The notes under the pieces: generated by a model
Databases searched by the model: none
The model's input: the letters and a program-made list of their open reading frames with translations, nothing else
What the model was told of the DNA's origin: nothing
Position numbers and translations under genes: made by a program
From: Escherichia coli O157:H7
GTDB taxonomy: Bacteria; Pseudomonadota; Gammaproteobacteria; Enterobacterales; Enterobacteriaceae
NCBI RefSeq assembly: GCF_013167455.1
Contig: NZ_CP038328.1
DNA length: 64,000 bases
Reading direction: 5' to 3' (one strand)
Part shown: positions 5,068 through 8,022 of the stretch, piece after piece
Numbering within the stretch: position 1 is the stretch's first letter
How the letters are laid out: each line of letters begins with the position of its first letter

Positions 5068-5139
5068 AATATTATGTTAACGGCATGTATATCATTTGGG
5101 GTTGCGATGACGACGAACACGCATTTTAGAGGTGAAGAA

Positions 5140-6825
5140 TTGAAGAAGGTTTGGCTTAACCGTTATCCCGCGGACGTTCCGACGGAGATCAACCCTGACC
5201 GTTATCAATCTCTGGTAGATATGTTTGAGCAGTCGGTCGCGCGCTACGCCGATCAGCCTGCGTTTGTGAATATGGGGGAGGTGATGACCTTCCGCAAGCT
5301 GGAAGAACGCAGTCGCGCGTTTGCCGCTTATTTGCAACAAGGGTTGGGGCTGAAGAAAGGCGATCGCGTTGCGTTGATGATGCCTAATTTATTGCAATAT
5401 CCGGTGGCGCTGTTTGGCATTTTGCGTGCCGGGATGATCGTCGTAAACGTTAACCCGTTGTATACCCCGCGTGAGCTTGAGCATCAGCTTAACGATAGCG
5501 GCGCATCGGCGATTGTCATTGTGTCCAACTTTGCTCACACGCTGGAAAAAGTGGTCGATAAAACCGCAGTTCAGCACGTTATCCTGACCCGTATGGGCGA
5601 TCAGCTTTCCACAGCGAAAGGCACACTGGTTAACTTCGTTGTTAAATACATCAAACGTCTGGTGCCGAAATATCATCTGCCAGATGCCATTTCATTTCGT
5701 AGCGCCCTGCACAACGGCTACCGTATGCAGTATGTCAAACCTGAACTGGTGCCAGAAGATTTAGCCTTCCTGCAATACACTGGCGGCACCACAGGTGTGG
5801 CGAAAGGCGCGATGCTGACTCACCGCAATATGCTGGCGAACCTGGAACAAGTTAACGCTACGTATGGGCCTCTGCTGCATCCGGGCAAAGAGCTGGTGGT
5901 GACGGCGCTGCCGCTGTATCACATTTTTGCACTGACCATTAACTGCCTGCTGTTTATCGAACTGGGTGGGCAGAACCTGCTTATCACTAACCCGCGGGAT
6001 ATTCCGGGGCTGGTCAAAGAGCTGGCGAAATATCCGTTTACCGCTATCACCGGCGTAAACACCTTGTTCAACGCGTTGCTGAACAATAAAGAGTTTCAAC
6101 AACTGGATTTCTCCAGTCTGCACCTTTCTGCAGGCGGTGGGATGCCTGTTCAGCAAGTGGTGGCAGAACGCTGGGTGAAACTGACCGGACAGTATCTGCT
6201 GGAAGGTTATGGCCTGACCGAATGTGCGCCGCTGGTCAGCGTGAACCCCTATGATATTGATTATCATAGCGGTAGCATTGGTTTGCCGGTGCCGTCGACG
6301 GAAGCCAAACTGGTGGATGACGACGATAATGAAGTATCGCCAGGTCAGCCAGGTGAACTTTGCGTCAGAGGTCCACAGGTGATGCTGGGCTATTGGCAGC
6401 GTCCGGATGCTACCGATGAAATCATCAAAAACGGCTGGTTACACACTGGCGACATCGCGGTAATGGATGAAGAAGGATTCCTGCGCATTGTCGATCGTAA
6501 AAAAGACATGATTTTGGTTTCCGGTTTTAACGTCTATCCCAACGAGATTGAAGATGTCGTCATGCAGCATCCTGGCGTACAGGAAGTCGCGGCTGTTGGT
6601 GTACCTTCCGGCTCCAGTGGTGAAGCGGTGAAAATCTTCGTAGTGAAAAAAGATCCATCGCTTACCGAAGAGTCACTGGTGACCTTTTGCCGCCGTCAGC
6701 TCACGGGCTACAAAGTACCGAAGCTGGTGGAGTTTCGTGATGAGTTACCGAAATCTAACGTCGGAAAAATTTTGCGACGAGAATTACGTGACGAAGCGCG
6801 CGGCAAAGTGGACAATAAAGCCTGA
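5140..6825 (+). CDS. fadD: Long-chain-fatty-acid--CoA ligase FadD
   Basis: 561 codons from a TTG start ([14 protein letters not shown]...); AMP-binding motifs ([17 protein letters not shown]); ORF track extends to upstream ATG at 5074. Confidence 0.9.
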
Positions 6826-6843
6826 GCGTTAAGTCAGTCGTCA

Positions 6844-6870
6844 GACGCCGGTTAATCCGGCGTTTTTTTT
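6844..6870 (+). terminator. Intrinsic terminator after fadD
   Basis: acgccgg-ttaat-ccggcgt hairpin followed by T8 run; lies where the sRNA SroD is mapped in K-12 as I recall (not annotated here). Confidence 0.6.
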
Positions 6871-6894
6871 GACGCCCACTAAAGAGAAAACAAT

Positions 6895-8022
6895 TTGAAT
6901 TACCAAATGATTACCACGGACGATGCGCTGGCTTCTTTGTGTGAAGCCGTCCGTGCCTTTCCGGCGATAGCCCTGGATACTGAATTTGTTCGTACGCGCA
7001 CTTATTACCCGCAGCTGGGGTTGATTCAACTTTTCGATGGCGAGCATCTGGCGCTAATTGATCCTCTCGGGATCACCGACTGGTCACCGCTGAAAGCGAT
7101 CCTGCGCGATCCGTCCATCACAAAATTTCTCCATGCAGGCAGTGAAGATCTGGAAGTGTTCCTCAATGTCTTTGGCGAATTACCACAACCCCTGATTGAC
7201 ACGCAAATCCTTGCTGCCTTCTGCGGACGCCCGATGTCATGGGGTTTCGCTTCCATGGTGGAAGAGTATTCCGGCGTTACGCTGGACAAGAGTGAATCGC
7301 GCACCGACTGGCTGGCCAGACCGCTGACCGAACGTCAGTGTGAATATGCAGCGGCGGATGTCTGGTATCTGTTACCGATCACCGCCAAGCTTATGGTAGA
7401 AACGGAGGCCTCCGGCTGGCTACCAGCGGCGCTGGATGAATGTCGCCTGATGCAAATGCGTCGTCAGGAAGTCGTTGCGCCGGAAGATGCCTGGCGTGAT
7501 ATCACCAATGCCTGGCAATTACGCACACGCCAACTGGCCTGTCTGCAACTGTTAGCCGACTGGCGACTGCGCAAGGCGCGAGAGCGCGATCTGGCGGTGA
7601 ACTTTGTCGTGCGTGAAGAGCATTTGTGGTCGGTAGCGCGTTATATGCCGGGAAGTTTAGGCGAACTGGACAGCCTGGGTTTATCCGGTAGCGAAATCCG
7701 CTTTCACGGTAAAACGCTGCTGGCGCTGGTGGAAAAAGCGCAGACATTGCCGGAAGAGGCCTTACCGCAGCCGATGCTTAACCTGATGGACATGCCGGGT
7801 TATCGTAAAGCGTTTAAAGCGATTAAGTCGCTGATTACTGACGTGAGCGAAACGCACAAGATCAGCGCCGAATTGCTGGCATCGCGTCGGCAAATCAACC
7901 AACTGCTGAACTGGCACTGGAAACTGAAACCGCAGAACAATTTGCCGGAGCTGATTTCCGGCTGGCGTGGTGAGCTGATGGCGGAAGCATTACACAATTT
8001 ATTGCAGGAATATCCGCAGTAA
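6895..8022 (+). CDS. rnd: Ribonuclease D
   Basis: 375-aa ORF from a TTG start (MNYQMITTDDALASL...); DEDDy exonuclease and HRDC features; recognised. Confidence 0.85.
   Translation: MNYQMITTDDALASLCEAVRAFPAIALDTEFVRTRTYYPQLGLIQLFDGEHLALIDPLGITDWSPLKAILRDPSITKFLHAGSEDLEVFLNVFGELPQPLIDTQILAAFCGRPMSWGFASMVEEYSGVTLDKSESRTDWLARPLTERQCEYAAADVWYLLPITAKLMVETEASGWLPAALDECRLMQMRRQEVVAPEDAWRDITNAWQLRTRQLACLQLLADWRLRKARERDLAVNFVVREEHLWSVARYMPGSLGELDSLGLSGSEIRFHGKTLLALVEKAQTLPEEALPQPMLNLMDMPGYRKAFKAIKSLITDVSETHKISAELLASRRQINQLLNWHWKLKPQNNLPELISGWRGELMAEALHNLLQEYPQ

What the first reader, a model, noticed from the sequence alone, without database searches (positions are those of the whole stretch)
6826..6897. 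fadD-rnd junction: both genes use TTG starts, with a strong terminator between them
fadD begins at TTG 5140 and rnd at TTG 6895; the 69-bp spacer is almost entirely a terminator hairpin plus T8. The non-ATG start, with the terminator read directly in front of it, would keep RNase D translation low. As I recall, the sRNA SroD maps to this fadD 3' region in K-12.
Basis: partly seen in the sequence, partly recalled or inferred. Interest (0 to 1): 0.3.

Follow-up and report, generated by a model that had tools for sequence, protein, structure and literature searches.

The report
fadD terminator doubling as rnd leader
The short gap between the E. coli fadD and rnd genes holds a well-studied dual-use element: it ends fadD transcripts (giving the small RNA SroD) and also forms the leader of the RNase D mRNA, whose U-run helps rather than hinders translation from a weak UUG start. 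All of this is already known.

Summary
fadD starts at TTG 5140 and rnd at TTG 6895. The spacer is 69 nt and contains a GC-rich hairpin (6843-6865) followed by T8 (6863-6870). Rfam's sroD model matches 6784-6869 at 115 bits. The window is 100% identical to K-12 here, so published K-12 data transfer directly. Term-seq places RNA 3' ends at 6866-6869. SMRT-Cappable-seq places an rnd-only transcription start at 6823, on the fadD stop codon. INRI-seq detects initiation at both annotated TTG codons.

Across about 75-79 Enterobacteriaceae species, neither gene ever uses ATG. The hairpin shows compensatory changes. Where fadD is moved 100-230 nt away, the hairpin and U-run stay next to rnd.

UUG is a weak start. 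But the hairpin and U8 lie inside the rnd 5' UTR, and reviews citing Zhang & Deutscher (1992) describe the U-run as a translational enhancer, not a brake. The terminator also fills only 28 of the 69 nt, not "almost all".

All of this is known biology from 1988-2003. The one possibly new item is a weakly supported outer helix that brackets the hairpin and U-run.

The parts
5140..6825 (+). fadD CDS (long-chain-fatty-acid--CoA ligase), TTG start, TGA stop
   Evidence: ORF and translation. NF006523 equivalog at 1171 bits, 1-560/561. Annotated identically in K-12 and in the O157-type genome. The start codon is TTG in 57 and GTG in 18 of 75 species, never ATG, with a conserved AGAGGTGA Shine-Dalgarno. 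INRI-seq initiation peak of 234-335 at K-12 1889746.
5079..5080 (+). fadD transcription start
   Evidence: SMRT-Cappable-seq operon b1805, TSS at K-12 1889807, which is window 5079. It agrees within 1 nt with my recollection of Black et al. 1992 (an A 60 bp upstream of the start codon).
6784..6869 (+). SroD small RNA (last 42 nt of fadD coding sequence plus 3' UTR up to the U-run)
   Evidence: Rfam RF00370 at 115.2 bits, model 1-86. The Adams 2021 tables place sroD at a position that works out to K-12 1888017-1888102. [quoted passage not shown] The family also hits Klebsiella, Enterobacter, Cedecea and Citrobacter loci.
6788..6817 (+). Inferred rnd promoter inside the fadD 3' coding region: -35 GTGACG 6788-6793, 18-nt spacer, -10 GACAAT 6812-6817
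   Evidence: Correct distance from the mapped TSS at 6823. These codons are invariant at synonymous sites in 74 species, and the last ~18 codons have the lowest synonymous diversity in the whole gene. It matches consensus at only 8 of 12 positions, so the promoter scan did not call it. The constraint could equally reflect SroD.
6823..6823 (+). rnd transcription start (+/- 1-2 nt), on the fadD stop codon
   Evidence: SMRT-Cappable-seq Supplementary Data 2: operon 'b1804', TSS 1888063 reverse, 'same' as RegulonDB. The window is identical to K-12 over 6770-6915.
6843..6865 (+). Terminator stem-loop (stem 6843/6844-6851 with 6857-6864/6865, loop 6852-6856)
   Evidence: Across 66 distinct sequences, 99.4% of cells are paired and 2 pairs show compensatory changes: G-C to A-U in 6 sequences and C-G to U-A in 1.
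6863..6870 (+). U8 tract: terminator tail and published translational enhancer of rnd
   Evidence: Sequence. Term-seq 3' ends at 6866, 6868 and 6869. T5-T9 is present in all 66 distinct sequences. Enhancer role from Zhang & Deutscher 1992, as quoted.
6839..6874 (+). Tentative outer helix bracketing the hairpin and U-run (C6839 G6840 U6841 C6842 with G6871 A6872 C6873 G6874)
   Evidence: 83.7% of cells paired, against 23-54% when partners are slid. 3 of 4 pairs show compensatory change. Most species' minimum-energy folds contain an enclosing helix. The support is weak: it adds only -1.5 kcal/mol in E. coli, the energy gain over a shuffled flank has median p = 0.16, and it is absent in L010, L012 and L019.
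6882..6887 (+). rnd Shine-Dalgarno (AAGAGA), 8 nt upstream of UUG
   Evidence: G6884, A6885 and A6887 are invariant and G6886 is nearly invariant across 66 sequences. The spacing fits TTG 6895. It would be 20 nt from ATG 6907.
6895..8022 (+). rnd CDS (RNase D), TTG start
   Evidence: TTG in 75 and GTG in 4 of 79 species, never ATG. Codons 2-4 (N, Y, Q) are conserved, with synonymous third-position changes. Codon 5, ATG, is ATT in L049. INRI-seq peak of 13-26 at K-12 1887991.

Best explanation
The 69-nt fadD-rnd spacer is one compact element read in two ways.

(1) For transcripts coming from fadD, it is a Rho-independent terminator. RNA ends in the U-run. A stable 86-nt tail fragment, SroD (6784-6869), accumulates.

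(2) rnd has its own weak promoter embedded in the last codons of fadD and starts transcription at the fadD stop codon (6823). The same hairpin and U8 therefore form the first two-thirds of the 72-nt rnd 5' UTR. Polymerases that read through give an mRNA with a weak Shine-Dalgarno (AAGAG) and a UUG start. On that mRNA the single-stranded U8 acts as an upstream 30S/S1 binding site that makes translation possible.

The net effect is low, fadD-independent RNase D expression. The UUG, the weak promoter and the leader terminator hold it down. The U-run keeps it from falling to zero.

Shown by data: both start codons, the 3' ends, the TSS, the structure and the conservation.
Taken from literature: the enhancer role of U8.
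Inferred: the promoter hexamers, and insulation or attenuation by the terminator.
For: - Sequence anatomy.
- Rfam sroD at 115 bits.
- 100% identity to K-12 across 6770-6915.
- Term-seq 3' ends at window 6866, 6868 and 6869.
- rnd-only operon with TSS at window 6823. The held part of the operon table lists fadD operons without rnd.
- INRI-seq initiation peaks at both annotated TTG codons, with fadD about 14-fold stronger than rnd.
- Literature: the U-rich tract is a translational enhancer of the UUG-initiated rnd mRNA and binds 30S. SroD lies at the fadD 3' end.
- Conservation in 75-79 species: non-ATG starts only, coding-type variation in rnd codons 2-4, and an invariant GAGA Shine-Dalgarno core.
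- Hairpin covariation.
- Natural experiments. In L010, L012, L019 and L082 the fadD-rnd spacer is 108-231 nt, yet the hairpin and U-run stay at the usual distance from the rnd start. In L082, fadD has acquired a separate terminator. The element therefore belongs to rnd as well as to fadD.
- The lowest synonymous diversity in all of fadD lies over the proposed -35 and -10.
Against: - The primary papers (Zhang & Deutscher 1988, 1989, 1992; Vogel 2003; Black 1992) are not in the held library. Details such as N-terminal sequencing, the UUG-to-AUG effect and the dispensability of the hairpin rest on my memory and on short citations in reviews.
- The promoter hexamers match consensus at only 8 of 12 positions and were not called by the scan.
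- The synonymous constraint could be due to SroD rather than to a promoter.
- In vivo Ribo-RET (Meydan 2019, as tabulated) shows no peak at either start, so in vivo initiation mapping is not shown by that data set.
- How polymerases that start 20 nt upstream get through a terminator that appears to stop fadD transcripts is not explained.
Confidence: 0.85

Rival explanations
1. One reading: the hairpin and U-run directly in front of the start codon, together with UUG, act as brakes on RNase D translation.
For: UUG is a poor initiator. The INRI-seq peak for rnd is low, 13-26 against 234-335 for fadD. In the E. coli minimum-energy fold, part of the U-run and the downstream GACGC pair with the 5' end of the leader.
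Against: Reviews citing the direct experiments call the U-rich tract an enhancer required for rnd translation that binds 30S. The hairpin ends 30 nt before the start codon and does not sequester the Shine-Dalgarno or UUG in any predicted fold. A 5'-UTR hairpin away from the ribosome-binding site is reported as largely irrelevant for translation (PMC3592434 conclusions).
Confidence: 0.1
2. A regulated leader attenuator. The terminator inside the rnd 5' UTR is a control point where some signal (for example an RNA-binding protein, growth phase, or RNase D itself) sets the fraction of polymerases that read through into rnd.
For: A TSS at 6823 with 3' ends at 6866-6869 means a terminator lies at about +21 to +48 of the rnd transcript. 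The hairpin and U-run remain attached to rnd when fadD is displaced and has its own terminator (L082), although as I recall the hairpin was reported dispensable for translation. SroD abundance is growth-phase dependent.
Against: No competing antiterminator pairing was found. The leader upstream of the hairpin folds weakly (-4.8 kcal/mol), and the conserved outer helix is compatible with the terminator rather than exclusive of it. The Term-seq 3' ends cannot be assigned to rnd-promoter transcripts as opposed to fadD transcripts. As I recall, deleting the region changed mRNA levels little (Zhang & Deutscher 1989).
Confidence: 0.15
3. It is only the fadD terminator. Its closeness to rnd is incidental gene packing and it has no role in rnd expression.
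For: Its position right after the fadD stop codon is typical. The 3' ends map there.
Against: The rnd TSS lies upstream of it. The enhancer literature contradicts this view. In L010, L012, L019 and L082 the hairpin and U-run stay with rnd, not with fadD. In L012 and L019 the fadD-proximal hairpin copy has lost its T-run while the rnd-proximal copy keeps T8.
Confidence: 0.03

Closest known systems
E. coli K-12 rnd upstream region (Zhang & Deutscher, JBC 1989; PNAS 1992): UUG start, GC-rich hairpin, U8 translational enhancer
   Same: This is the same sequence, 100% identical over 6770-6915: same UUG, hairpin, U8 and Shine-Dalgarno. It is the same locus in another E. coli strain.
   Different: Nothing differs in the sequence. 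My added observations are conservation across about 79 species, displaced-fadD natural experiments, synonymous-site constraint over the embedded promoter, and a tentative outer helix.
SroD sRNA (Rfam RF00370; Vogel et al. 2003 RNomics)
   Same: Full-length match at 115 bits in the expected context, sharing the fadD terminator.
   Different: None. Its function remains unknown. An overexpression screen showed no biofilm or motility phenotype, and it is not needed for the fadD-dependent PldA signalling phenotype.
A/U-rich, S1-dependent translational enhancers upstream of the Shine-Dalgarno (for example the fepB leader and the phoP-derived enhancer)
   Same: A pyrimidine/A-U-rich single-stranded tract 5' of a weak ribosome-binding site that boosts initiation, often paired with a non-AUG start.
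   Different: Here the enhancer is a pure U8 that is at the same time the tail of a working intrinsic terminator.
3'-UTR-derived sRNAs that share the parent mRNA's terminator (for example CpxQ, SdhX, UhpU)
   Same: SroD spans the end of the fadD coding sequence and the 3' UTR, and ends at the mRNA's terminator.
   Different: No Hfq or ProQ dependence, no targets and no biogenesis route (processing or internal promoter) were established here. The 2022 review of this class does not mention SroD.

Membership tests
Rho-independent (intrinsic) terminator | G+C-rich stem-loop immediately followed by a U-tract | tested here: met
   9-pair stem with 6 G-C pairs, a 5-nt loop, then T8. -14.4 kcal/mol.
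Rho-independent (intrinsic) terminator | RNA 3' ends map within the U-tract in vivo | tested here: met
   Published Term-seq tables give K-12 1888017, 1888018 and 1888020 on the minus strand. These map to window 6869, 6868 and 6866. The coordinate mapping is validated by 100% identity.
Rho-independent (intrinsic) terminator | Structure maintained in evolution | tested here: met
   99.4% of cells paired in 66 distinct sequences, with two pairs showing compensatory changes.
Rfam sroD (RF00370) | Covariance-model score at or above the gathering threshold over the full model | tested here: met
   115.2 bits against a threshold of 50, model positions 1-86 of 86.
Rfam sroD (RF00370) | Genomic context: fadD 3' end, upstream of rnd, same strand | tested here: met
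Rfam sroD (RF00370) | A discrete ~86-90-nt RNA accumulates | not testable with these tools
   Only the 3' end is supported. Expression is reported in a secondary source. The original Northern data (Vogel 2003) are not held.
U-rich translational enhancer of rnd (Zhang & Deutscher 1992) | The U-tract lies within the mRNA, 5' of the Shine-Dalgarno | tested here: met
   TSS at 6823, U8 at 6863-6870, Shine-Dalgarno at 6882-6887.
U-rich translational enhancer of rnd (Zhang & Deutscher 1992) | The U-tract is required for 30S binding and translation | not testable with these tools
   Literature only, through citing reviews. The primary paper is not held. Conservation of T5-T9 in all 66 sequences is consistent with it.
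Transcription attenuator (regulated leader terminator) | Terminator located between the TSS and the start codon | tested here: met
   TSS at 6823, 3' ends at 6866-6869, start codon at 6895.
Transcription attenuator (regulated leader terminator) | A mutually exclusive antiterminator structure or a known regulatory ligand or protein | tested here: not met
   No competing pairing appears in the folds of 66 sequences. The enclosing helix coexists with the terminator.
Hfq-dependent 3'-UTR-derived regulatory sRNA | Chaperone binding and base-pairing targets | not tested
   The only item found is a computational listing of one (ARN)x motif in SroD. No target data were found.

The most novel reading that the evidence does not exclude
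In the read-through (rnd) mRNA, a second, evolutionarily maintained helix closes around the terminator hairpin. In E. coli this is 6839-6842 with 6871-6874; in Enterobacter it is CGCCCA/UGGGCG; other species show variants such as CGUUC/GGACG and CACUC/GGGUG. The helix would leave the U-run as an exposed asymmetric internal loop. That would make the leader a defined RNA module that presents U8 to S1/30S. It could also explain why the hairpin stays with rnd even when fadD is displaced, although the hairpin is reportedly dispensable for translation in plasmid assays.
Probability: 0.25. Interest if true: 0.3.

Novelty: already known. Interest (0 to 1): 0.12.

Why it matters
This is a textbook-scale example of sequence economy. 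One 28-nt hairpin and U-run terminates one gene, defines an sRNA, and supplies a translational enhancer for the next gene. For annotation there is one practical point: automatic pipelines start rnd at ATG 6907 in many E. coli genomes, whereas the evidence supports TTG 6895. Otherwise nothing here changes current understanding. The function of SroD, and the reason the hairpin is retained by rnd, remain small open questions.

Tried and rejected
- I tried to read the primary papers: Zhang & Deutscher 1992 (PMC48710), Vogel 2003 (PMC275561) and Thomason 2015 (PMC4288677). None is held.
- Supplements searched without result: Cappable-seq, the Rend-seq annotation paper and TRAINSPOTTER N-terminomics. 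None contained these genes or coordinates.
- RNAalifold on the MAFFT alignment predicted only the inner hairpin.
- An energy-gain test of the outer helix against shuffled 5' flanks was individually weak: median p = 0.16, and only 22% of sequences had p < 0.05. I therefore do not claim the outer helix as established.
- I considered an alternative hairpin, GGCGU(U7G)ACGCC, that would place the U-run in a loop. I rejected it because the downstream CGCC is specific to Escherichia.
- I considered an antiterminator and found none.
- I considered ATG 6907 as the true rnd start, as PGAP annotates it. I rejected it on Shine-Dalgarno spacing, coding-type conservation of codons 2-4, TTG-to-GTG-only substitutions, loss of that ATG in L049, and the INRI-seq peak listed for the annotated TTG.
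- The mechanical ORF at 6841-7047 on the minus strand has no support.

Full report
**What is in the sequence.** The window is E. coli. Positions 6600-7100 are 100% identical to O157-type genomes and are present in 5425 of 5426 complete E. coli genomes. Positions 6770-6915 are 100% identical to K-12 MG1655. An ORF reading through 5140-6825 encodes FadD. From TTG 5140 it is 561 aa and matches the NCBIfam FadD equivalog end to end (1-560/561, 1171 bits). An ORF from TTG 6895 to 8022 encodes RNase D, 375 aa, collinear from residue 1 with PDB 1YT3 and with NF008089.

The spacer 6826-6894 is 69 nt. Within it, 6843-6865 forms a 9-pair hairpin (6 G-C pairs, loop TTAAT). T8 follows at 6863-6870. The hairpin folds at -14.4 kcal/mol. 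The spacer folds better than 198 of 200 dinucleotide shuffles (z = -2.9). So the stated observation holds, except that the terminator covers 28 of the 69 nt, not almost all of it.

**SroD.** Rfam's sroD model (RF00370) is the only Rfam hit in the 64-kb window. It covers 6784-6869 on the + strand at 115.2 bits (gathering score 50), over the full model. [quoted passage not shown] The family also matches the same position in Klebsiella, Enterobacter, Cedecea and Citrobacter loci. I found no assigned function: no phenotype in an overexpression screen, and no involvement in the fadD-dependent phenotype tested.

**Transcript ends from published K-12 data.** Term-seq tables (Adams et al. 2021, eLife, supplement) list 3' ends at K-12 1888017, 1888018 and 1888020 on the minus strand in three data sets, labelled fadD/sroD and '-27/-29 upstream of rnd'. 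Using rnd start 1887991 = window 6895, these are window 6869, 6868 and 6866, inside the U-run. The terminator therefore works in vivo.

SMRT-Cappable-seq (Yan et al. 2018, Supplementary Data 2) lists an operon consisting of b1804 (rnd) alone, with its TSS at 1888063 on the reverse strand. That is window 6823, the first base of the fadD stop codon and 72 nt upstream of UUG. It also lists fadD operons starting at 1889807 (window 5079) that do not include rnd. This agrees with what I recall of Zhang & Deutscher 1989 (a TSS about 70 nt upstream of UUG), which I could not re-read. The hairpin and U8 are consequently part of the rnd 5' UTR.

**Start codons.** INRI-seq (Hör et al. 2022, Table S2) reports initiation peaks at the annotated starts of both genes. 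For rnd (1887991) the peaks are 13-26 in five replicates. For fadD (1889746) they are 234-335. Both are flagged as identified. The in vivo Ribo-RET data set tabulated alongside shows no peak for either gene.

I scanned one genome per species and retrieved 80 Enterobacteriaceae loci.
- The rnd start is TTG in 75 and GTG in 4 of 79 loci, never ATG.
- rnd codons 2-4 keep N, Y and Q in 73, 79 and 78 of the 79 loci, while varying at third positions (AAT/AAC, TAC/TAT, CAA/CAG). This is the signature of translated codons.
- The downstream ATG (codon 5) is ATT in L049.
- The Shine-Dalgarno core GAGA (6884-6887) is essentially invariant. It sits 8 nt from TTG but 20 nt from ATG 6907.
- PGAP nevertheless annotates ATG 6907 in the O157-type genome. 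The curated K-12 record uses TTG.
- For fadD, TTG occurs in 57 and GTG in 18 of 75 loci, never ATG, behind a conserved AGAGGTGA.

That both neighbours use TTG is probably coincidence as a pair. From general knowledge, about 3% of E. coli genes use TTG, so a handful of adjacent pairs is expected per genome. Each gene is, however, individually held at a weak start codon.

**What the hairpin and U-run do.** Two reviews citing the primary experiments state that the U-rich region binds 30S subunits in vitro and acts as a translational enhancer of rnd mRNA in vivo. They also note that such enhancers accompany the UUG start of rnd (PMC5934652; PMC7769764). From memory, Zhang & Deutscher 1992 found that shortening U8 progressively abolished RNase D synthesis without much change in mRNA, whereas the stem-loop itself was dispensable.

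**Comparative evidence that the element belongs to rnd.** The hairpin is paired in 99.4% of cells across 66 distinct sequences, with compensatory G-C to A-U (6 sequences, Kluyvera-type) and C-G to U-A (1 sequence, Cedecea-type) changes. The spacer is 67-74 nt in 73 of 78 loci.

In the exceptions the hairpin and T-run remain at the normal distance from the rnd start.
- L082 (Dryocola, 225 nt): fadD has a separate terminator of its own.
- L012 and L019 (Citrobacter, ~230 nt): an inserted segment of about 160 nt is flanked by two copies of the hairpin. The fadD-proximal copy has lost the T-run, while the rnd-proximal copy keeps T8.
- L010 (108 nt) shows the same retention.

This argues against the view that the element is just the fadD terminator.

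**Embedded promoter.** Upstream of TSS 6823 lie GACAAT (6812-6817) and GTGACG (6788-6793), separated by 18 nt. They match consensus at 8 of 12 positions, too weak for the scan. In 74 full-length fadD genes, the ten 8-codon windows with the lowest synonymous diversity in the whole gene all fall in codons 544-555 onward. CGT-GAC-GAA (6787-6795) and GAC-AAT (6811-6816) never vary, even where the protein differs. This fits a conserved promoter. It could equally reflect constraint on SroD, which overlaps the region. I cannot separate the two.

**A possible extra helix.** In most species the bases just 5' of the hairpin can pair with the bases just 3' of the U-run. Examples are E. coli CGUC/GACG, Enterobacter CGCCCA/UGGGCG, L044 CGUUC/GGACG and L039 CACUC/GGGUG, and most minimum-energy folds contain such an enclosing helix. 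On the unfitted MAFFT alignment these four pairs are 83.7% paired, against 23-54% for slid partners, and three of the four show compensatory change.

The counter-evidence is substantial. I derived the structure from these same sequences. The helix adds only -1.5 kcal/mol in E. coli, where the minimum-energy fold uses a different, clade-specific partner (6826-6833 with 6866-6875). The gain over shuffled flanks is individually weak (median p = 0.16). The helix is absent in the three insertion-bearing Citrobacter loci. I report it as a lead only.

**Verdict.** The biology was described between 1988 and 2003, and later genome-wide data sets agree with it. Novelty: already known. Interest is low.

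Noticed in passing
window 6895-6909: RefSeq/PGAP annotation of the identical sequence in an O157-type genome (NZ_CP030767.1) starts rnd at ATG 6907 (371 aa). The curated K-12 record starts at TTG 6895 (375 aa). Conservation, Shine-Dalgarno spacing and INRI-seq support TTG, so the PGAP start is probably 4 codons short.
   Followed up: yes
window 5107-5139: An in-frame ATG 11 codons upstream of the fadD TTG start is present in all 75 species loci, always at exactly -11 codons and with no intervening stop. It lies inside the fadD 5' UTR (TSS about 5079). It could be conserved leader sequence or an N-terminally extended isoform. INRI-seq lists an initiation peak for the annotated TTG start; upstream starts were not examined.
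   Followed up: partly
window 6769-6822: The last ~18 codons of fadD have the lowest synonymous-site diversity of the whole gene across 74 species. CGAGAA (6778-6783), CGTGACGAA (6787-6795) and GACAAT (6811-6816) are invariant. This is consistent with an embedded rnd promoter, with SroD sequence constraint, or both.
   Followed up: partly
L012:2270-2500 and L019:2271-2500 (Citrobacter spp.): A segment of about 160 nt is inserted into the fadD-rnd spacer and flanked by two copies of the terminator hairpin (gacgccgggtgaatccggcg). The upstream copy lacks the T-run, and the Rfam sroD model matches that copy. It looks like an insertion that duplicated its hairpin target. The inserted element was not identified.
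   Followed up: no
L082:2276-2500 (Dryocola boscaweniae): fadD is followed by a different terminator (aaagccggtactaccggcttttt) and a 225-nt spacer, yet the rnd-type hairpin and U-run still sit directly upstream of rnd. There is no sroD hit at the gathering score.
   Followed up: partly
window ~7003 (K-12 1887883, minus strand): The Adams et al. 2021 Term-seq tables list an ORF-internal 3' end about 108 nt into the rnd coding sequence in one data set. Its meaning is unknown.
   Followed up: no
window 6844-6849 and 6871-6876: GACGCC occurs twice in Escherichia, once as the 5' arm of the hairpin and again just after the U-run. The second copy is not conserved outside Escherichia.
   Followed up: partly
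K-12 NC_000913.3 1888017-1888102 (L002): The copy of the K-12 RefSeq record available here lists no sroD feature in this interval, although EcoCyc-derived tables used by Adams et al. do (gene G0-9384).
   Followed up: no
window 6782-6786: The SroD 5' end (6784) falls in AA|UUA. This resembles the RNase E preference for cleavage two bases before a U, which I recall from the literature. It suggests SroD is processed from fadD mRNA. The Leu codon there (TTA/CTG/TTG) is not conserved.
   Followed up: no
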